Shown here: piece by piece, positions 11,361 through 19,222 of the stretch | Layout of the letters: every line of letters begins with the position of its first letter | Numbering within the stretch: the first letter of the stretch is position 1 | DNA from: an uncultured Chloroflexia bacterium | GTDB lineage: Bacteria > Chloroflexota > Limnocylindria > QHBO01 | Direction of reading: 5' to 3' | Length of the DNA: 64,000 bases | Assembly (NCBI GenBank): GCA_963810925.1 | Contig: CAWEPF010000010.1 | Location: 47,407-111,406, forward strand | The notes under the pieces: generated by a model | The model's input: only the letters and a program-made list of their open reading frames with translations | What the model was told of the DNA's origin: nothing | Databases searched by the model: none | Made by a program: the position numbers and the translations under genes

Positions 11361-11431
11361 CCGGCCGAGTGTACCGGAGCCGATTTCGACGGCTGGTAGA
11401 ATCGGCCACCCTTCGAGGATCCGAGGCCGCC

Positions 11432-12247
11432 GTGTCTGACTTCTCCTCCGCCGCTTCGCCGACCCCCGCGTGGTCGAGCGCCGCGCGCGCCGGTCGACGC
11501 GTGGGCCAGGCGGTCGAGCATCACGCCGAGATCGGGTCCACCAACGACCGGGCGCGCGAGGCGCTGGCCGCCCCGGGCGGGGACGGGCTGGCGGTGGTGG
11601 CCGATCGGCAGGTGGCGGGGCGCGGACGGATGGGTCGAGCCTGGCTCTCCCCGGCCGGCGCGAACCTGCTGGTCAGCGTGGGACTCCAGCTGGACCTTCC
11701 CGTGGAACGAGCGTGGTGGCTGGGAGCCGCCTCTGCCCTCGCCGTGCGAGCGGCCGCCTCCCCGTGGGTCGAGCTGCTGATCCGCTGGCCCAATGACCTG
11801 GTGACACGCGACGGCCTGAAGGTGGCCGGCCTGCTCACCGAAACCCAGATCGAGGGCGAGCGCCTGGTGAGCGCGGTGCTCGGGATGGGGATCAACGTGA
11901 ATTGGGCGCGGTCCGAGATGCCGCCCGACATCGCTCCGGCGGCCACGTCACTGGCGGACGAGTCCGGCAGCCCGCGTGACCGGGTGGCCCTCCTCGCCGC
12001 GCTGCTGGAGTCCCTTGACGAGGAGATCGGGGCGGTCGAGTCCGGTATCTCGCCGCTCGCCCGGTTCCAGGCCGCTTCGTGGCTCACCGGTCAGGCGATC
12101 GAAGTCGAGACCCCGGCCGGCCGCTTGAGCGGCGTCGCCGGCCCGGTGGCCGACACCGGCGGCCTGCTGCTCACCGGTCCCGCGTTCCAGACCACGATCA
12201 GCGTGGGCGAGGTCATTCGCGTCCACGCACGGGGGGCGGGCGCATGA
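11432..12247 (+). CDS. birA: biotin--[acetyl-CoA-carboxylase] ligase. Start uncertain: GTG 11432 preferred over 11369.
   Basis: Contains GSTNDRA and the GRGRMGRAWLSP motif. A start at 11369 would leave only 8 bp before divergent trpS. Confidence 0.8.
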   Translation: MSDFSSAASPTPAWSSAARAGRRVGQAVEHHAEIGSTNDRAREALAAPGGDGLAVVADRQVAGRGRMGRAWLSPAGANLLVSVGLQLDLPVERAWWLGAASALAVRAAASPWVELLIRWPNDLVTRDGLKVAGLLTETQIEGERLVSAVLGMGINVNWARSEMPPDIAPAATSLADESGSPRDRVALLAALLESLDEEIGAVESGISPLARFQAASWLTGQAIEVETPAGRLSGVAGPVADTGGLLLTGPAFQTTISVGEVIRVHARGAGA

Positions 12248-12837
12248 CCGCCGACCCCCGACCCGAGTCCCGCCGCCACGCGGCACCGGATGCCGGGGAT
12301 CCGGACCTGGCGGACGTGCGCGCCGCCCAGGCGGACCCCGCCGCCTTCGACCAGCTCTATCGGCGCTACGTGGATCGGGTCTACAGCTACGCCTTCTACC
12401 AGCTGGGGGACCATCACGAGGCCGAGGACGTCACCGAGCGGACCTTCCTGTCGGCGCTCGCCGCGATTGGTCGCTACCGCGATGACGGGTCCACCTTCCG
12501 GGCCTGGCTGTTCCGGATTGCGCACAACGCCATCGCCAACGCGCATCGCTCACGCGCGCGACGCCGGACCGAGCCCATCGAGTCCATCGCGGAGCCGCAT
12601 GCCCCCGGCGCCGATCCGGCCGCGGTGGTCGCCGGCGCTGATCGCTCGCGCGCCGTCCGCGAGGCATTGGCCCGCATCCCGACGGAGCGTCGCCAGGTGA
12701 TCGTGCTTCGCTTCGTGGATGGCCTGTCGTCGCGGGAGATCGGGGCGGTGCTCGACCGGAGCCCCGGCGCCGCCCGCGTCCTCCTCCATCGGGCCCTGGC
12801 CGACCTCGCCGCCGAGCTGGACCGGGCCGACCTGTAA
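12244..12837 (+). CDS. ECF-type RNA polymerase sigma-70 family factor
   Basis: The ATG at 12244 overlaps the birA stop (ATGA). Region 2 (YRRYVDRVYSYAFYQLGDHHEAEDVTERTF) and region 4 (VIVLRFVDGLSSREIGAVL) are recognisable. Confidence 0.85.
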   Translation: MTADPRPESRRHAAPDAGDPDLADVRAAQADPAAFDQLYRRYVDRVYSYAFYQLGDHHEAEDVTERTFLSALAAIGRYRDDGSTFRAWLFRIAHNAIANAHRSRARRRTEPIESIAEPHAPGADPAAVVAGADRSRAVREALARIPTERRQVIVLRFVDGLSSREIGAVLDRSPGAARVLLHRALADLAAELDRADL

Positions 12838-12870
12838 CGAATCGGCCGCCGCGGTGTTAGCCGCGACAGG

Positions 12871-13200
12871 ATGCCTCCATTCTCGACTGACGCCGACCGG
12901 CTCGACCGCGCGGTGACCGCCGTCCTGGCCGACGAGCCGGCCGCCGTTCCGCCGACCCTGGCCGACCAGCTGGCCCTGGCCCGCGTGCTCCGGACCGCGC
13001 TGGCCCCGGTTCCCGCCGGCTCCGCGTTCGAGGACCATCTCGCGGAACGTCTCGCCCATGGCCCAGAGGCGGACCCGGGTCGGCTGATGAGCCAGTTCGT
13101 CCGCCACCACCAGCGCCTTGTCGTGACCGGGGCGGTGAGCTCGGTCGTGCTCAGCACGGCCAGCGCGGCGGTCCTCGCCTGGAGGCTGGTGCACCGGTGA
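12871..13200 (+). CDS. putative membrane-anchored anti-sigma factor
   Basis: 109-aa ORF immediately after the ECF sigma gene, with a C-terminal TM segment (LVVTGAVSSVVLSTASAAVLAW). The call rests on position only. Confidence 0.45.
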   Translation: MPPFSTDADRLDRAVTAVLADEPAAVPPTLADQLALARVLRTALAPVPAGSAFEDHLAERLAHGPEADPGRLMSQFVRHHQRLVVTGAVSSVVLSTASAAVLAWRLVHR

Positions 13201-13204
13201 GCGC

Positions 13205-14170
13205 ATGAAGATCAAGTTCCCGTTCAGCCGCCGCAGCGGTCCCACCGACGCGTGGACCAAGTGCCCCGTGTGCGAGAACCAGCTGTTCAACCGTCAGCTG
13301 GAGCGAACGCAGCGGGTGTGCCCCACCTGCGGCCACCACTTCCGCCTGTCTGCCGCCGAGCGGATCGAGCTGCTCATCGATGGTGGGACCTTCGAGGAGC
13401 GCGACGCGAACCTGGTCAGTGGTGACCCGCTGGGTTTCGTGGACAGCAAGCCCTATCCCGAGCGGCTCGAATCCTCGCGGGTCCGGTCCGGTCTGCCGGA
13501 GGCTGCCATCTGGGGCATCGGCAAGATCGAGGGCCAGCGCGTCGCGATCGGTCTGTTCGACTTCCGGTTCATGGGTGGCTCCATGGGCAGCGTGGTGGGC
13601 GAGAAGGTCGCGCGCTGCTTCGAGGCGGCCCTGGCGGAGCGCATCCCGGCCATCGTGGTCAGCGCGTCAGGCGGGGCGCGCATGCAGGAGGGCACGATCT
13701 CGCTCCTCCAGCTGGCCAAGACGACCGCCGCCCTCGAGCGCCTGAACGAGGCGGGCATCCCGTTCATCAGCATCCTGACCGATCCCACCACCGGGGGCGT
13801 GCTCGCCAGCTTCGCGTCGCTGGGTGACGTCGTCCTGTCCGAGCCGCGCGCGCTGGTCGGATTTGCGGGCGCCCGGGTGGCCAGCGGAACGGTGGGGGAG
13901 GAGCTCCCCGAGGGCTTCCAGAGTGCCGAGCGCCTGATGGAGCACGGGTTCGTGGACGTCATCGTGCCGCGCACCCAGCTCCGAGCGACGGTCGCCCGTC
14001 TCGTCCGCGTGCTCCCCGTCGCGGGCCAGACCGATGCGACCGATCGGCGTGCCATCCGACCGATCGGCATGCTTCAGGGCCTGGCCCAGCGCGTCGGAGG
14101 CGCGGTGAGCGAAACGGCCGGGATCGACACCGATGTCACGCCCGGTCGGCCAAACGGTGGTGGCCGATGA
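13205..14170 (+). CDS. accD: acetyl-CoA carboxylase carboxyltransferase beta subunit
   Basis: N-terminal Zn ribbon CPVCENQ...CPTCGHH, followed by a carboxyltransferase domain. Confidence 0.9.
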   Translation: MKIKFPFSRRSGPTDAWTKCPVCENQLFNRQLERTQRVCPTCGHHFRLSAAERIELLIDGGTFEERDANLVSGDPLGFVDSKPYPERLESSRVRSGLPEAAIWGIGKIEGQRVAIGLFDFRFMGGSMGSVVGEKVARCFEAALAERIPAIVVSASGGARMQEGTISLLQLAKTTAALERLNEAGIPFISILTDPTTGGVLASFASLGDVVLSEPRALVGFAGARVASGTVGEELPEGFQSAERLMEHGFVDVIVPRTQLRATVARLVRVLPVAGQTDATDRRAIRPIGMLQGLAQRVGGAVSETAGIDTDVTPGRPNGGGR

Positions 14171-15152
14171 CCGAGACGTGACCGAGATGGCCATCCAGCC
14201 CGACCCGCCCGTGATCAGCGCCGAGGCCGCCGACGCGGCGTGGCGCCGCGTGCAGCTGGCCCGCCACCCGCAGCGCCCGCGCACCTTGTCGCTCGTCGCG
14301 CAGATGTTCGACGAGTTCGTCGAGCTCCACGGTGATCGCACCTTCCGCGACGACCCGGCCATGGTCGGTGGTCCGGCTCTGCTGGACGGGCGTGCGGTCA
14401 TGGTCATCGGCCACCAGAAGGGCAGCGATACCGAGTCGAACATCTTCCGGAACTTCGGCTCGCCCATGCCGGAGGGCTTCCGCAAGGCGCAACGGCTGAT
14501 GCGCCTGGCCGACCGGATCGGCGTGCCGGTCATCACCTTCCTCGACACCGCGGGGGCATTTCCCGGGCCGGCCGCCGAGGAGCGCGGCCAGGCGGAGGCG
14601 ATTGCCAGCTCGATCCGGCTCATGACCGGATTGCGGGTGCCGATCGTGGTCGTCATCGTCGGAGAGGGCGGATCAGGCGGGGCTCTGGCCATCGGGGTGG
14701 GGGACGAGGTCCTCGCCCTGGAGAACGCGGTGTACTCGGTCATCTCGCCCGAGGGATGCGCCGCCATCCTGTGGCGCTCGGCCGACGCCGCGCCGCGGGC
14801 CGCGGCCGCGATGAAGATGACCGCCGCCGAGCAGCACGCGCTGGGGATCGTGGACGGCGTGATCGACGAGCCGCCCGACGGCGCCCATACCGACCTTCCG
14901 GCCACCGCGGCCGCCATCAAGCAGGCCATCCTGGGATCGCTGACCCGCCTGGATCGGCTCGCTCCCGACGATCTGCGCGCGGCTCGCTATGCTCGACTGC
15001 GCACGATCGGTACCGTGCTCGAGCTGGAGGCTGAGGCACTTCGGGGTCCCTCGCCCTCCTTCGGGGAGCGGCTGGGGCGTCTGCTGGGGCTCCCGGCCGG
15101 GGCGCAGCCCGCGGAGTCCGATGAGGATGATCTCGACGAGGAGGGCGCATGA
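14133..15152 (+). CDS. accA: acetyl-CoA carboxylase carboxyltransferase alpha subunit. Start uncertain (14133-14187).
   Basis: ARHPQRPRTL, FLDTAGAFPG, AEERGQAEAIA and GEGGSGGALA are hallmarks of AccA. Confidence 0.9.
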   Translation: MSRPVGQTVVADDRDVTEMAIQPDPPVISAEAADAAWRRVQLARHPQRPRTLSLVAQMFDEFVELHGDRTFRDDPAMVGGPALLDGRAVMVIGHQKGSDTESNIFRNFGSPMPEGFRKAQRLMRLADRIGVPVITFLDTAGAFPGPAAEERGQAEAIASSIRLMTGLRVPIVVVIVGEGGSGGALAIGVGDEVLALENAVYSVISPEGCAAILWRSADAAPRAAAAMKMTAAEQHALGIVDGVIDEPPDGAHTDLPATAAAIKQAILGSLTRLDRLAPDDLRAARYARLRTIGTVLELEAEALRGPSPSFGERLGRLLGLPAGAQPAESDEDDLDEEGA

Positions 15153-15619
15153 GCGACGATCCGGCCCAGGCCATCGCCCGTGCCGCCGCCGAGCTGGTCC
15201 CGCCCCTCACCGAGCGCCTGAACCGCCTCGGCCTGGGCGAGATCGAGGTCCGCCAGGGCGACCTCCGGGTGCGGGTCGTGGCCGTCGAGAAGTCGCCAGG
15301 GGGATCCGGTTCGGGCGTGGACGTCACCGTCACGCGGCCGGGAGCGACCGATCCCGCGCCCGCCGCCGCGAGGACCCTCGACCAGCTGAAGTCCCCCGCG
15401 GTCGGCCATTTCGTATACGCCGACGGCCTGGGACCGGGACTGGCGGTAGGCCCCGGGACCGAAGTCGGGTACGTGGAGATGCTCGGCATCCGCCATGAAG
15501 TTCGGGCGGCCGAGGCGGGCGTCGTGCGCCACCTCGTGGCCGAGAGCGGTGAGCCGGTGGAATACGGACAGCTCCTGGTCGAGCTCGAGCGCGGGTCGGG
15601 CGGCGGGTCCGGAGCCTGA
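15149..15619 (+). CDS. BCCP-like biotinyl-domain protein that lacks the biotinylated lysine
   Basis: The C-terminal domain aligns to BCCP (SPAVGHFVY...GTEVGYVEMLGIRHEVRAAEAGVV). The EAMK hairpin reads VEMLG, with Gly at 15485-15487. The gene overlaps the accA stop and the accC start. Confidence 0.75.
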   Translation: MSDDPAQAIARAAAELVPPLTERLNRLGLGEIEVRQGDLRVRVVAVEKSPGGSGSGVDVTVTRPGATDPAPAAARTLDQLKSPAVGHFVYADGLGPGLAVGPGTEVGYVEMLGIRHEVRAAEAGVVRHLVAESGEPVEYGQLLVELERGSGGGSGA

Positions 15620-16983
15620 TGTTCGCCAAGATCCTGATTGCCAACCGAGGCGAGATCGCGGTCCGCGTCCTCCGCACCTGCCGCGAGCTGGGCATCCCGG
15701 CCGTCGTCGCGTTCAGCGAGCCCGATCGGGAGTCCATGGCCGTTCAGCAGGCGGACGAGGCGATCTGCATCGGTCCAGCGGAAGCTCGGCGGTCGTACCT
15801 CAACCAGCCGGCGCTCATCAGCGCGGCACTGATCACCGGTTGCGATGCCATCCACCCCGGCTATGGCTTCCTGTCAGAGGACGCCTCGTTCGCCGAGGCC
15901 TGCGCCGCGCACGACCTGGTGTTCATCGGTCCACCCGCGCACGTCATCGAGCGGTTCGCCTCCAAGTACGCGGTCCGCCGCATGCTCGCCGCCACCGGCC
16001 TGCCGACCGTTCCGGGGAGCACCGGGATCGTCGCCGACCTGGCCGACGCCCTGGCCCAGGCCGAGGCCGCCGGCTACCCGGTTCTGCTCAAGCCCTCGGC
16101 CGGCGGGGGCGGCCGCGGGATGCGCCTCGTCCGCTCCCCCCGTGAGATGGAGACCTCGCTGCCCCTCGCCAAGTCGGAGGCCCGCGCCGCGTTCGGGGAT
16201 GACTCGCTGTACTTCGAGCGGTGGATCGAGGAGAACCGACACGTGGAGGTCCAGGTCCTGATCGACAGCCATGGGAACGGCATCCACCTGGGCGAGCGCG
16301 ACTGCTCGGTCCAGCGCCGGCATCAGAAGATCATCGAGGAGGGGCCGTCGCCGGCCATGACCGAGCCCGCCCGCGAGCGGCTGCGGGACCTGGCCATCCG
16401 CTCGGTCGTCTCCGCTGGCTACGAGAACATGGGCACGCTCGAGTTCCTGCTCGACCGTGAGGGCAACTTCTTCTTCATCGAGATCAACTGCCGGATCCAG
16501 GTCGAGCACCCGGTGACCGAGATGCTGACCGGGGTGGACCTCGTGGCGGAGCAGATCCGGATCGCCGCCGGAGAGCGGCTGCTCATGACCCAGGAGCAGG
16601 TCCAGCTGCGCGGTCACGCGATCGAGTTCCGGATCACCGCCGAGGACCCGCTCGACAACTTCTCGCCCCAGACGGGAGTCGTGACCGACGTCCAGTGGCC
16701 CGGCGGCGCGGGTGTACGGGTGGATACCCACCTCTACCCCGGGTACGAGATCCCGCCGTACTACGACTCGCTCCTCGCCAAGCTGGTGGTGTGGGGCGAG
16801 ACGCGGACCGAAGCTCTCGCCCGAGCCCGCCGGGCCCTGGCCGAGACGACGGTCGAGGGCGTGAAGACGAACCTCCCCTTCCACCGGGGGATCGTTGACA
16901 ATGCGGCCTTCGTGGGGGCTGAGGTCAGCACCAACCTGCTCGACCGCGTCGGCGCTGCAGCCTTCGTGGGCGAGCCCGTCTGA
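15619..16983 (+). CDS. accC: acetyl-CoA carboxylase biotin carboxylase subunit
   Basis: 454 aa. [16 protein letters not shown]-grasp motifs and [14 protein letters not shown] are present. Confidence 0.95.
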
Positions 16984-17492: not shown

Positions 17493-18780
17493 TCAGTCCC
17501 CGCGGCCCAGCTCCCGCGAGCGCGGCGAGCGTCGGGTGGTGGTCACCGGCCTGGGCGCCGTGACACCGCTGGGCAACGACGTGGCGACGTACTGGGAAGG
17601 CCTCGTGGCCGGCCGCAGCGGGCTGGGTCGCATTCAATCCTTCGATCCATCCCGGATCACGTCTCAGGTGGGCGGCGAGGTCAAGGACTTCGACCCCACC
17701 ACGGTCATGGACCGCAAGGAAGCCCGCCGCCATGACCGCTACGTCCACTACGCGTGGGCGGCGGCTTCACAGGCCCTCACGGATGCCGGCATCACGTTCC
17801 CGGTGGTCGCGGACGCCGACGCGGACCGGATGGGTGCCATCGTGGCCACCGGCGTCGGCGGGGTGGGGTCGCTCGTCCGCGACGCCCAGGCGGCCGCGAT
17901 CGAGGGCTACGATCGGGTCAGCCCGTTCGCCGTGCTGAACATGATTTCCGACACCGCCGCAGGCCACGTGGCCATCGCCGCCAACCTCCGAGGCCCGAAC
18001 TACGCCACGGTCAGCGCCTGCGCCTCGAGCAACCACGCCCTGGGCGAAGCGGCCGGCATCATCCGGCGGGGAGATGCCGACGTCATGGTGGCTGGCGGCT
18101 CGGAGGCGGCCATCTGCGAGATGGTCGTGGCGGCGTTCTGCGCGATGCGGGCGCTGTCCACCAAGCGGAACGATGACCCGACCCATGCCTCGCGCCCGTT
18201 CGACGTGGACCGCGATGGGTTCGTGATCGCCGACGGGGCCGGGATGCTGGTCCTCGAGGACCTGGACCACGCGCGTGCCCGGGGAGCCACCATCCGGGCG
18301 GAGTTCGTCGGCTATGGCGCCTCGGACGATGCCTCGCACGTGACCCTGCCGGCGCCGGGCGGTCGGGGAGCGGCGGCCAGCATGCGGATCGCGCTGGCCG
18401 ACGCCGGCCTCGCCCCCAGTGAGCTGGGGTACATCAACGCCCACGGCACCTCGACCCCGCCCAACGACCCGGCTGAGACGGCGGCGATCAAGACCGTCTT
18501 CGGCGCCGATGCCTACACGGTTCCCATCAGCAGCACGAAGTCCATGACCGGGCACCTCATGGGGGCCGGGGGCGGGATCGAAGCCGTCGCCTGCGTTCGC
18601 GCGCTCGAGACGGGGACCATCCCGCCCACCATCAACCTCGACAACCCCGATCCCGAGTGCGACCTCGACTACGTCCCCAACGTGGCGCGCCAGCTCCCCA
18701 TCGAGACGGCGATGAGCAATGCCTTCGGGTTCGGCGGGCACAACGCCACCCTGGTCTTCCGACGCTGGGACGGCGCCTGA
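17485..18780 (+). CDS. fabF: beta-ketoacyl-ACP synthase II. Start is GTG 17485 or GTG 17536.
   Basis: [14 protein letters not shown], the active-site context ATVSACASS, and GHNATLVF at the C-terminus. Confidence 0.9.
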
Positions 18781-18784
18781 TCGG

Positions 18785-19222
18785 ATGGACACCGATCCCA
18801 TCCTCGCCGCGGTCGACGCGCTCACCGGGCCCTTCGCGGCGAGCGATCTGGACGAGCTGGAGGTCGAGTCCGGCGGGATCACCGTCCGCTTGGCAAAGCG
18901 TCGCGCACCCGCACCCGCGCCGGCCGCCGCCTCGGCGGGTTCGCCGGCAGCCACCGGCCCCTTCGGTGAGCCGGCTCCCGGTCATCGGTTCATCACCGCG
19001 CCGTTGACCGGTGTCTGGTACGGCGCCCCGTCGCCCGGCGCCCGCCCCTACGTCCAGCTCAACGGCGAGGTGTCGGCCGGCCAGGTGGTCGGCCTGATCG
19101 AGGCCATGAAGCTGTTCAACGAGATCAAGTCCGACGTGGCGGGCACGGTGAGCCGGATCCTGGCCGACAGTGGGACACTGGTGAAGCGCCAGCAGCCACT
19201 CTTCGAGGTCAAATTGTCGTGA
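18785..19222 (+). CDS. accB: acetyl-CoA carboxylase biotin carboxyl carrier protein (canonical)
   Basis: ATG at 18785. The canonical hairpin GLIEAMKLFNEIKSD has its Lys codon at 19109-19111. Confidence 0.85.
   Translation: MDTDPILAAVDALTGPFAASDLDELEVESGGITVRLAKRRAPAPAPAAASAGSPAATGPFGEPAPGHRFITAPLTGVWYGAPSPGARPYVQLNGEVSAGQVVGLIEAMKLFNEIKSDVAGTVSRILADSGTLVKRQQPLFEVKLS

What the first reader, a model, noticed from the sequence alone, without database searches (positions are those of the whole stretch)
15149..15619. BCCP paralog without the biotinyl-lysine, occupying the classical accB slot next to accC
The C-terminal roughly 75 aa align with biotinyl domains, but the hairpin that normally reads E-A-M-K reads V-E-M-L-G, with Gly at 15485-15487. 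The only Lys in that domain sits at its start (in QLKSPAV), not in the hairpin. A canonical AccB with IEAMKLFNEI is encoded 3.2 kb downstream, between fabF and fabH. The Lys-less copy is translationally coupled to accA (ATGA) and accC (TGATG). Plant BADC proteins are Lys-less BCCP look-alikes reported to inhibit heteromeric ACCase. A bacterial counterpart inside the acc operon would be a candidate built-in modulator or scaffold of biotin carboxylase.
Basis: partly seen in the sequence, partly recalled or inferred. Interest (0 to 1): 0.65.

Follow-up and report, generated by a model that had tools for sequence, protein, structure and literature searches.

The report
Lysine-less biotin carrier twin beside accC
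A soil Chloroflexota lineage (class Limnocylindria) keeps, inside its acetyl-CoA carboxylase operon, a strongly conserved copy of the biotin carrier protein that cannot carry biotin; it looks like an independently evolved bacterial counterpart of the plant BADC proteins.

Summary
ORF 15149-15619 (+), 156 aa, here called X, is a full-length BCCP homologue. Gly113 (GGC, 15485-15487) sits where the biotinyl-lysine should be: VEMLG against IEAMK. X overlaps accA (ATGA) and accC (TGATG). A canonical AccB lies between fabF and fabH.

New findings:
- X also lacks the 6-residue "thumb" of ACC-type BCCPs.
- It keeps the N-terminal helix plus beta-hairpin module of BCCP.
- All 379 relatives whose hairpin is covered have Leu-Gly at the tip, and no Lys column is conserved anywhere.
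- The best 150 of 1.84 billion cluster representatives are all of this Lys-less type.
- The family is one clade (bootstrap 100). Every named source is Limnocylindria or Chloroflexota.
- The cluster birA-sigma-accD-accA-X-accC-fabZ-fabF-accB-fabH-fabG is conserved.
- dN/dS is 0.06-0.11, like the catalytic subunits.
- A Brassica BADC-type protein has the same E-x-L-G hairpin (IEQLG) but keeps the thumb, which points to convergence.

Best reading: X is a non-catalytic ACC subunit that anchors to biotin carboxylase and/or to AccB through its N-domain. Whether it scaffolds or inhibits was not tested. I found no bacterial precedent in the held literature. I rate it a new variant of a known kind, interest about 0.6.

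The parts
15149..15619 (+). X: Lys-less, thumb-less BCCP paralogue, 156 aa
   Evidence: ORF. PF00364 at 25 bits. TIGR00531 reaches only 34.3 bits against a cut-off of 115.2. The AF2 model has pLDDT 80.7 overall and 96-98 in the C-domain. Foldseek gives TMt 0.84 to E. coli BCCP and 0.90-0.91 to thumb-less P. horikoshii BCCP.
15149..15283 (+). N-terminal domain (aa 1-45): helix 5-27 plus beta-hairpin 31-36/39-45. This matches the BCCP-type alpha/beta/beta module used for oligomerisation and anchoring to biotin carboxylase.
   Evidence: AF2 secondary structure. L20, E31 and E33 are invariant, and L29 and R42 nearly so, across X, Limnocylindria AccB and E. coli BCCP. dN/dS is 0.03-0.08. For comparison, the E. 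coli BCCP N-terminus is predicted as alpha/beta/beta forming a barrel (PMC11160672), and the C. aurantiacus BCCP beta-hairpin barrel bridges BC dimers (PMC11077971).
15284..15382 (+). Ala/Pro/Gly-rich flexible linker (aa 46-78)
   Evidence: pLDDT is below 50 for aa 49-54 and 64-71. Length is variable in relatives. dN/dS is about 0.2.
15383..15589 (+). C-terminal biotinyl-domain fold (aa 79-147) without the acceptor Lys
   Evidence: PF00364 match at aa 79-146. pLDDT 96-98. dN/dS 0.02-0.05.
15482..15487 (+). Hairpin tip Leu112-Gly113. Gly (GGC, 15485-15487) replaces the biotinyl-Lys.
   Evidence: Alignments. The turn lies between strands 105-111 and 114-119. L and G are invariant in 102 aligned members and in 379/379 sequences. 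Independent metagenome contigs are identical here.
15425..15430 (+). Site of the 6-residue thumb deletion (between Gly93 and Leu94), relative to ACC-type BCCPs
   Evidence: Gap of 6 columns against E. coli BCCP, both Limnocylindria AccBs and plant BCCP. The gap is 9 columns against the Brassica BADC-type protein.
15140..15152 (+). GGAGG Shine-Dalgarno-like site plus the ATGA overlap of the accA stop and the X start
   Evidence: Read directly from the sequence.
15611..15621 (+). GGAG plus the TGATG overlap of the X stop and the accC start
   Evidence: Read directly from the sequence.
13205..14170 (+). accD (carboxyltransferase beta, with Zn ribbon)
   Evidence: PF01039 and PF17848.
14133..15152 (+). 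accA (carboxyltransferase alpha)
   Evidence: PF03255 at 383.6 bits.
15619..16983 (+). accC (biotin carboxylase)
   Evidence: PF00289, PF02786 and PF02785.
18782..19222 (+). Canonical accB (IEAMKLFNEI, thumb present) between fabF and fabH. The listed ORF starts at 18719, but ATG 18782 is the more likely start.
   Evidence: PF00364 at 48.7 bits and TIGR00531 at 93 bits. The orthologue in L083 is called as 145 aa. Alignment.
11369..12247 (+). birA (biotin-protein ligase), conserved upstream neighbour of the cluster
   Evidence: Orthologues carry PF03099/PF02237. Synteny shown.

Best explanation

Shown here:
- It has the complete BCCP architecture: N-terminal helix plus beta-hairpin, flexible linker, and C-terminal biotinyl-domain fold.
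- The acceptor Lys is replaced by Gly and the thumb is deleted. No conserved Lys exists anywhere in the protein, so it cannot be biotinylated or shuttle CO2.
- Both folded domains evolve as slowly as the catalytic subunits.
- It is translationally coupled to accA and accC.
- A separate canonical AccB is always encoded in the same cluster.

Inferred:
- X uses its conserved N-domain to attach to biotin carboxylase (AccC) and/or to co-oligomerise with the N-domain of the real AccB. E. coli and Chloroflexus BCCPs use the same module this way, forming beta-barrels that tether BCCP and bridge BC dimers.
- Its Lys-less C-domain may occupy BCCP docking sites on BC.
- The net effect would be to organise or tune the BC-BCCP subcomplex at fixed stoichiometry.

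I consider an assembly or scaffold role more likely than pure inhibition. The direction of the effect was not tested.

Evolutionary reading (also inferred): X descends from the original accB of an accB-accC pair. It lost the carrier function once, at or before the base of the class, after a second BCCP (the fabF-accB copy) was present.
For: Anatomy:
- Alignments put Gly at the Lys position and show a 6-residue thumb gap.
- The AF2 model has pLDDT 80.7, with L112-G113 at the hairpin turn and a helix 5-27 plus hairpin 31-45.
- Foldseek gives TMt 0.84, rmsd 1.8-2.2 A, to E. coli BCCP, and TMt 0.90-0.91 to thumb-less P. horikoshii BCCP.

Conservation:
- 379/379 relatives have L-G at the tip, and no column has Lys above 15%.
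- 14 columns are invariant in 102 members spanning 32-96% identity, among them L20, E31, E33 and R42 in the N-domain and L112-G113.
- dN/dS of X is 0.061 and 0.112. For comparison, accC is 0.050/0.062, accA 0.092/0.129 and accB 0.049. The N- and C-domains are at 0.02-0.08 and the linker at about 0.2.

Breadth:
- The profile search of 1.84e9 representatives gave 415 hits at E<=1e-10. All of the top 150 are Lys-less where the hairpin is covered.

Context:
- accD-accA-X-(fabD)-accC-fabZ-fabF-accB-fabH is found in all 17 related loci inspected, in both subfamilies.
- Start and stop codons overlap, with SD-like sites upstream.

Phylogeny:
- X forms a clade with bootstrap 100. Its two subclades mirror the two AccB subclades.
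- The X profile scores Thermoleophilia AccB at 66-68 bits but the co-resident AccB at only 30-41 bits. X is therefore not a recent copy of the co-resident gene.

Precedents for the role of the N-module:
- PMC11160672 and PMC11077971.

Precedents for Lys-less BCCP homologues that bind BC and are stoichiometric with other ACC subunits:
- Plant and algal BADC (PMC11926652; PMC13585458).
Against: - There is no experimental or expression evidence. No RNA run holds the gene.
- No protein-protein prediction could be made, because the tool folds single chains only.
- Binding to AccC or AccB is inferred from homology of the N-domain, not shown.
- All related loci were retrieved through X itself, so I cannot say that every Limnocylindria genome has X.
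- In Chloroflexus, a Lys-to-Ala BCCP no longer binds carboxyltransferase. X may therefore be excluded from part of the holoenzyme.
- Plant workers still disagree on whether BADCs inhibit or assemble, so the analogy does not settle the direction of the effect.
Confidence: 0.55

Rival explanations
1. Built-in negative regulator (the BADC inhibitor model). X competes with holo-AccB for biotin carboxylase and lowers ACC flux. A signal such as pH, PII or acyl-ACP might shift the balance between X and AccB.
For: X has the same Lys-less architecture and the same E-x-L-G hairpin as a BADC-type protein. BADCs are described as BC-binding inactive homologues that block BCCP access (PMC13585458; Salie 2016 as cited in PMC11926652). 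X keeps the BC-anchoring N-domain.
Against: X is co-translated at fixed coupling with accA and accC, which leaves no obvious way to vary the X:AccB ratio. An obligatory inhibitor retained across a whole class, under selection as strong as on the enzyme itself, is less parsimonious than a structural subunit. Reconstitution work in plants favours an assembly role.
Confidence: 0.2
2. Autoregulator of acc or fab expression. X keeps only the regulatory function that the E. coli AccB N-terminus has on the accBC operon, or it buffers BirA, and it is not part of the enzyme.
For: The N-terminal 68 residues of E. coli AccB can negatively regulate expression (PMC11160672). The N-domain of X is highly conserved. 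birA lies in the same conserved neighbourhood.
Against: The C-terminal domain is at least as constrained as the N-domain (dN/dS 0.02-0.05; pLDDT 96-98), which a purely N-domain function would not require. BirA here is short (268-292 aa; Pfam finds only the ligase domains), so it is probably not a repressor that would need buffering. Loss of AMK and of the thumb should weaken BirA recognition (inference).
Confidence: 0.1
3. X works outside ACC. It could be a Lys-less barrel-sandwich adaptor for another complex, or it could carry some other modification on a non-Lys residue.
For: There are weak hits to HlyD-type adaptor and oxaloacetate decarboxylase models. Some relatives carry precomputed MFP-type barrel-sandwich Pfam labels (PF25917, PF25919).
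Against: Those hits are far below their cut-offs (18.5 bits against 208.65). The best sequence and structure matches are ACC-type BCCPs. X keeps the BCCP N-domain. It is always embedded between accA and accC. Across the family, the ≥90%-conserved residues include no Cys and no Lys.
Confidence: 0.05
4. X is a decaying relic of accB, or an assembly or sequencing artefact, with no function.
For: It scores poorly against the AccB equivalog model (34 bits against 115).
Against: dN/dS is 0.06-0.11. The reading frame is intact in hundreds of clusters, with invariant motifs. Independent metagenome contigs are identical at the Gly codon. The fold is predicted with high confidence.
Confidence: 0.02

Closest known systems
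Plant and algal BADC / BCCP-like proteins (Arabidopsis BADC1-3; Brassica Bra027217; Chlamydomonas Cre01.g037850)
   Same: Both are BCCP homologues that lack the biotinyl-Lys. The hairpin reads E-x-L-G with Gly at the Lys position: IEQLG in Brassica, VEMLG or VDVLG in X. Both coexist with true BCCPs in a heteromeric ACC. BADCs are reported to bind BC, and in Chlamydomonas to be stoichiometric with the CT subunits.
   Different: BADCs are eukaryotic, nuclear-encoded and separately regulated, whereas X is translationally coupled inside a bacterial acc operon. The BADC-type protein keeps the thumb and lengthens it by 3 residues, while X has lost it. X is no closer to the BADC fragment (30%) than to plant BCCP (32%), and it forms its own clade seen only in Limnocylindria. 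An independent origin is most likely. PMC11926652 calls BADCs 'unique to the plant htACCase'.
Canonical AccB/BCCP (E. coli P0ABD8; PDB 1bdo, 4hr7; NCBIfam TIGR00531)
   Same: Same three-part architecture and fold (TMt 0.84, rmsd about 2 A). The N-domain motif E-h-E-h-x-x-G-x-x-x-h-R-h is shared. Both sit directly upstream of accC.
   Different: X has no EAMK Lys and no thumb. TIGR00531 scores 34 bits against a cut-off of 115. X has new family-specific residues after the tip, R115-H116 or R/P-Q, where BCCP has M-N.
BCCP beta-hairpin barrel of Chloroflexus aurantiacus BC1 and the predicted N-terminal barrel of E. coli BCCP
   Same: X keeps a helix plus beta-hairpin module of the type that forms inter-subunit beta-barrels. 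These barrels bridge BC dimers and tether BCCP in the holoenzyme.
   Different: In those systems the module belongs to a biotinylated carrier. In X it is attached to a dead carrier domain. Barrel formation by X is inferred, not shown.
Non-catalytic 'glue' subunits of actinobacterial acyl-CoA carboxylases (epsilon subunits, AccE)
   Same: They are small non-catalytic proteins that promote assembly and activity of a biotin-dependent carboxylase, and are cited as an analogy for BADC in PMC11926652.
   Different: By my own recollection, which I did not test here, the epsilon subunits are unrelated in sequence and fold to BCCP and bind the carboxyltransferase side.
Thumb-less BCCPs (Pyrococcus horikoshii BCCP, PDB 2evb/5gua/2ejf)
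   Same: These are the best structural superpositions of X's C-domain (TMt 0.85-0.91, rmsd 1.3-1.6 A), consistent with loss of the thumb.
   Different: They retain the biotinyl-Lys and are real carriers.

Membership tests
Functional BCCP / AccB (TIGR00531 equivalog) | Biotinyl/lipoyl barrel-sandwich fold (PF00364) | tested here: met
   PF00364 at 25.0 bits against a cut-off of 22.1, aa 79-146. Foldseek TMt 0.84 to 1bdo and 4hr7_G.
Functional BCCP / AccB (TIGR00531 equivalog) | Acceptor Lys in the (E)AMK hairpin tip | tested here: not met
   Gly113 aligns with the Lys. 379/379 relatives have Gly, and no Lys column is conserved.
Functional BCCP / AccB (TIGR00531 equivalog) | Protruding thumb typical of ACC-type BCCPs | tested here: not met
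   6-residue gap relative to E. coli, Limnocylindria and plant BCCPs.
Functional BCCP / AccB (TIGR00531 equivalog) | N-terminal alpha/beta/beta domain plus Ala/Pro-rich linker | tested here: met
   AF2 gives helix 5-27 and strands 31-36/39-45. L20, E31 and E33 are invariant with real BCCPs.
Functional BCCP / AccB (TIGR00531 equivalog) | Score above the curated equivalog cut-off | tested here: not met
   34.3 bits against a cut-off of 115.2. The co-resident AccB scores 93.2.
Functional BCCP / AccB (TIGR00531 equivalog) | Biotinylation by BirA and carboxyl transfer | not testable with these tools
   Needs a streptavidin blot or mass spectrometry, and an enzyme assay.
Plant BADC (biotin attachment domain-containing) proteins | BCCP homologue lacking the biotinyl-Lys motif | tested here: met
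   The BADC definition is taken from PMC11926652.
Plant BADC (biotin attachment domain-containing) proteins | Shared descent with the plant/algal BADC clade | tested here: inconclusive
   Only one BADC-type C-domain (Bra027217) was available. X is 30% identical to it and 32% to plant BCCP, and the thumb is retained in BADC but lost in X. The X clade carries only Chloroflexota/Limnocylindria names. This points to convergence, but no full BADC phylogeny was run.
Plant BADC (biotin attachment domain-containing) proteins | Physical association with BC/BCCP and an effect on ACC activity | not testable with these tools
   Needs pull-down or reconstitution experiments.
Membrane-fusion/HlyD-type barrel-sandwich adaptors | Match to the adaptor family models | tested here: not met
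   TIGR01843 at 18.5 bits against a cut-off of 208.65, covering 41 residues only.

The most novel reading that the evidence does not exclude
Two very distant lineages with heteromeric ACC, a bacterial class and the plant/algal plastid, independently turned a BCCP copy into a stoichiometric non-biotinylated subunit with the same E-x-L-G hairpin. This would mean that BCCP has a structural role (nucleating or bridging the BC-BCCP subcomplex) that is separable from its carrier role. In Limnocylindria the ancestral accB next to accC would have kept only the structural role, and a second AccB in the fab genes took over catalysis. X would then give a simple bacterial system for settling the plant dispute over whether BADCs inhibit or assemble.
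Probability: 0.35. Interest if true: 0.75.

Novelty: new variant of a known kind. Interest (0 to 1): 0.6.

Why it matters
Acetyl-CoA carboxylase catalyses the committed step of fatty-acid synthesis and is a target for antibiotics and herbicides. How the four-subunit bacterial enzyme assembles was visualised only recently.

Lys-less BCCP look-alikes have so far been treated as a plant/algal speciality, and their role (brake or glue) is still disputed. A bacterial analogue has several practical advantages:
- it is operon-encoded and small;
- it comes with its own AccA, AccC, AccD, AccB and BirA in one 10-kb cluster;
- it gives a tractable system for separating the structural and carrier functions of BCCP.

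There is also an annotation consequence. Public pipelines name these proteins 'acetyl-CoA carboxylase biotin carboxyl carrier protein'. That name is functionally wrong for this entire family.

Tried and rejected
- Sequencing error at 15485-15487: rejected.
- Pseudogene or relic: rejected on dN/dS and conservation.
- A biotinyl-Lys displaced elsewhere: rejected, because no Lys column exceeds 15% in 356 full-length members.
- Recent tandem copy of the co-resident accB: rejected. The X profile scores that AccB lowest (30-41 bits), and X forms a separate, deep clade.
- Membership in the plant BADC family: not supported.
- The first AF2 model, from 16 sequences, had pLDDT 63.7, too weak for fold comparison. 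I replaced it with a 102-sequence model.
- Transcription evidence: no RNA run holds the gene.
- The promoter/terminator scan was uninformative: 0 promoter-like sites, and the 2 terminator-like sites are no more than shuffled sequence gives.
- Key BADC evolution papers (Salie 2016; Conrado 2024) are not in the held library. My statement that no bacterial BADC-like protein has been described therefore rests on full-text searches of the held library only.
- Predicting the X-AccC or X-AccB complex: not attempted. The structure tool folds one chain, returns no inter-chain confidence, and accepts only unmodified sequences.
- Prevalence of X across all Limnocylindria could not be measured. The one genome scan retrieves loci through peptides of X itself.
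Full report
**1.
ORF 15149-15619 (+) encodes a 156-aa protein, here called X. Its ATG overlaps the accA stop (ATGA, 15149-15152), and its TGA overlaps the accC ATG (TGATG, 15617-15621). GGAGG (15140-15144) and GGAG (15611-15614) lie just upstream of the two start codons. The neighbours are bona fide accD, accA and accC.

Pfam PF00364 matches aa 79-146 just above its threshold (25.0 against 22.1 bits). The AccB equivalog model TIGR00531 reaches only 34.3 bits against a cut-off of 115.2.

Several alignments all place Gly113 (GGC, 15485-15487) at the biotinyl-Lys position, VEMLG against (I/V)EAMK. These are BLASTP against the co-resident AccB, HMMER against E. coli BCCP and human PCC, and two MAFFT alignments. 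X has two lysines, K48 and K81, and neither is conserved. The canonical AccB (IEAMKLFNEI) lies between fabF and fabH. Contigs from three independent soil-metagenome runs are identical across the Gly codon.

**2. More than the Lys is gone.**
Relative to E. coli BCCP, plant BCCP and both Limnocylindria AccBs, X lacks six residues exactly where ACC-type BCCPs carry the protruding thumb. Everything else of the BCCP plan is present.

An AlphaFold2 model built from 102 family members has mean pLDDT 80.7, and 96-98 in the C-domain. It predicts:
- a helix (aa 5-27) plus a beta-hairpin (31-36/39-45);
- a disordered Ala/Pro/Gly linker;
- a barrel-sandwich domain with L112-G113 at the turn between strands 105-111 and 114-119.

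Foldseek superposes the C-domain on E. coli BCCP (1bdo, 4hr7_G; TMt 0.84, rmsd 1.8-2.2 A). The fit is better still on the thumb-less Pyrococcus BCCP (TMt 0.85-0.91, rmsd 1.3-1.6 A). The N-domain shares invariant L20, E31 and E33, and near-invariant L29 and R42, with real BCCPs.

**3. It is a large, old, constrained family.**
The word-indexed search returned 1253 hits. All of the best 120 (55-99% identity) read VEMLG(I/V)RH(E/D)V.

A profile search that read all 1.84 billion cluster representatives gave 5520 hits at E<=1e-3, 415 at E<=1e-10 and 17 at E<=1e-30. All of the best 150 whose hairpin is covered read [VI][DE]xLG. Canonical BCCPs score at most 68 bits on this profile, below the 79 bits of the 150th hit.

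Over all sequences fetched, 379 of 379 have Gly at the Lys position. All but one, a garbled sequence (P0134), have Leu before it. In 356 full-length members no column has Lys above 15%.

There are two subfamilies:
- VEMLG-RH-VRA, which is the window's type;
- VDVLG-(R/P)Q-V-AP.

The source names point to Chloroflexota, Candidatus Limnocylindria or Limnocylindrales. One exception, a locus titled Pleomorphomonadaceae, looks mis-binned. Every non-Limnocylindria locus whose hairpin I read (13 of those from the genome scan) has EAMK.

A neighbour-joining tree puts all X sequences in one clade (bootstrap 100). Its two subclades (bootstrap 98 and 100) mirror the two subclades of Limnocylindria AccB. 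This indicates a single origin and vertical inheritance.

Against two close relatives, dN/dS of X is 0.061 and 0.112. That is within the range of accA (0.092/0.129), accC (0.050/0.062) and accB (0.049). The N- and C-domains are at 0.02-0.08 and the linker at about 0.2.

**4. The context is fixed.**
All 17 related loci that I inspected, from both subfamilies, carry the same cluster as far as the contig reaches: birA, ECF sigma, a small ORF, accD, accA, X, accC, fabZ, fabF, accB (EAMK), fabH, fabG. Two variations occur. fabD is inserted between X and accC in one subclade, and a metallophosphoesterase sits between fabZ and fabF in another. X therefore always coexists with a true carrier.

The X profile scores the co-resident AccB lowest (30-41 bits) and Thermoleophilia/Gaiellaceae AccB highest (66-68 bits). 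X also retains the widespread GEPVEYGQ C-terminus. X thus looks like the descendant of an ordinary accB that sat next to accC, not a recent copy of the fabF-linked accB. This last point is inference.

**5. How it most likely works.**
What is shown:
- X cannot be a biotin carrier, because it has no acceptor Lys, no conserved Lys anywhere, and no thumb.
- Both folded domains are nevertheless under strong purifying selection.
- It is produced in step with AccA and AccC.

What is inferred comes from what the conserved parts do in real BCCPs. In E. coli, the first 30 or so residues of BCCP are predicted to form an alpha/beta/beta unit that oligomerises into a beta-barrel. This fits density at the centre of the ACC tubes and would tether BCCP there. 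The C-domain parks on a non-catalytic site formed by BC and the AccD N-terminus (PMC11160672). In Chloroflexus aurantiacus BC1, four BCCP beta-hairpins form an eight-stranded barrel that bridges two BC dimers and raises BC activity. A Lys-to-Ala mutant no longer binds carboxyltransferase (PMC11077971).

X keeps exactly this module, and so does the co-resident AccB. My preferred model is therefore that X joins the BC-BCCP subcomplex through its N-domain, either alone or mixed with AccB, while its dead C-domain occupies a BCCP docking site. It would act as a stoichiometric organiser or tuner of the enzyme. I put about 0.55 on this non-catalytic ACC subunit reading. Within it, a scaffold role seems more likely than pure inhibition, because the coupling to accA and accC leaves little room for varying the X:AccB ratio.

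The rivals, set out in their own section, are an inhibitor (0.2), an expression or BirA regulator (0.1), a role outside ACC (0.05) and a relic (0.02).

**6. Comparison with what is known.**
The closest known things are the plant and algal BADC / BCCP-like proteins. These are Lys-less BCCP homologues that bind BC. They have been described both as inhibitors and as assembly glue (PMC11926652), and in Chlamydomonas they are stoichiometric with the CT subunits (PMC13585458).

A Brassica BADC-type sequence from the supplement of PMC9578262 reads IEQLG at the hairpin. That is the same E-x-L-G, with Gly at the Lys position, as in X.

X is still not a BADC family member on present evidence:
- the BADC-type protein keeps and lengthens the thumb, whereas X has lost it;
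- X is no more similar to the BADC fragment (30%) than to plant BCCP (32%);
- X forms its own clade, seen only in Limnocylindria.

So X works like a BADC, but most likely arose independently. Full-text searches of the held library found no description of a bacterial Lys-less BCCP. One paper calls BADCs 'unique to the plant htACCase'. Two key evolution papers could not be read, so prior mention elsewhere cannot be excluded.

**7. Verdict.**
The analogy is strengthened, but the function is untested and family membership is not supported.
- Novelty: a new variant of a known kind, namely an operon-encoded, thumb-less, independently evolved bacterial pseudo-BCCP.
- Interest: about 0.6. A specialist would find it surprising, and it offers a simple system for an open question about BADC function. 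It rests on sequence evidence only, from uncultured organisms.

Noticed in passing
window 11369-13200: In every Limnocylindria locus checked, three genes precede accD: birA (biotin-protein ligase), an ECF-type sigma factor (12244-12837) and a 109-aa ORF with no Pfam hit (12871-13200, possibly an anti-sigma factor). A sigma/anti-sigma pair wedged between birA and the acc-fab cluster is an unexplained conserved feature.
   Followed up: partly
L005 8468-9433 (also L006-L011, L014): In one subclade, fabD (321 aa, GHSVGE motif) is inserted between X and accC. X is therefore not always directly coupled to accC.
   Followed up: partly
L084 10478-11224; L085 10428-11168; L013 10230-11144: In the VDVLG subfamily loci, a metallophosphoesterase gene sits between fabZ and fabF inside the fab cluster.
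   Followed up: no
L001 (DATKBC010000158.1): The contig is titled 'Pleomorphomonadaceae bacterium' (Alphaproteobacteria). It carries the Limnocylindria birA-sigma-accD-accA-X-accC cluster at 69-91% protein identity to the window. It is probably a mis-binned contig.
   Followed up: partly
window 18719-18782: The longest accB ORF overlaps fabF by 62 nt. ATG 18782, one base after the fabF stop, gives the 145-aa product called in the close relative L083 and is the likelier start.
   Followed up: partly
window 14917-15855 (-), 14987-15532 (-), 14989-15498 (+): Long ORFs on other frames and strands overlap X (up to 312 aa). They are typical of very GC-rich DNA, have no support, and should not be annotated.
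   Followed up: no
P0134, P0149 (representative library): Two X-type representatives have garbled stretches around the hairpin, for example SRCSG. They look like frameshifted gene calls from low-quality assemblies, not real variants.
   Followed up: no
P0154, P0166, P0169, P0187 and others: A sub-group of 12 representatives has Cys two residues before the Gly (VDCLG). It is not conserved family-wide, and its significance is unknown.
   Followed up: no
public annotations of P0014, P0032, P0075 and others: JGI and NCBI name many family members 'acetyl-CoA carboxylase biotin carboxyl carrier protein' or 'biotin/lipoyl-containing protein'. This is misleading for a protein without an acceptor Lys.
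   Followed up: yes
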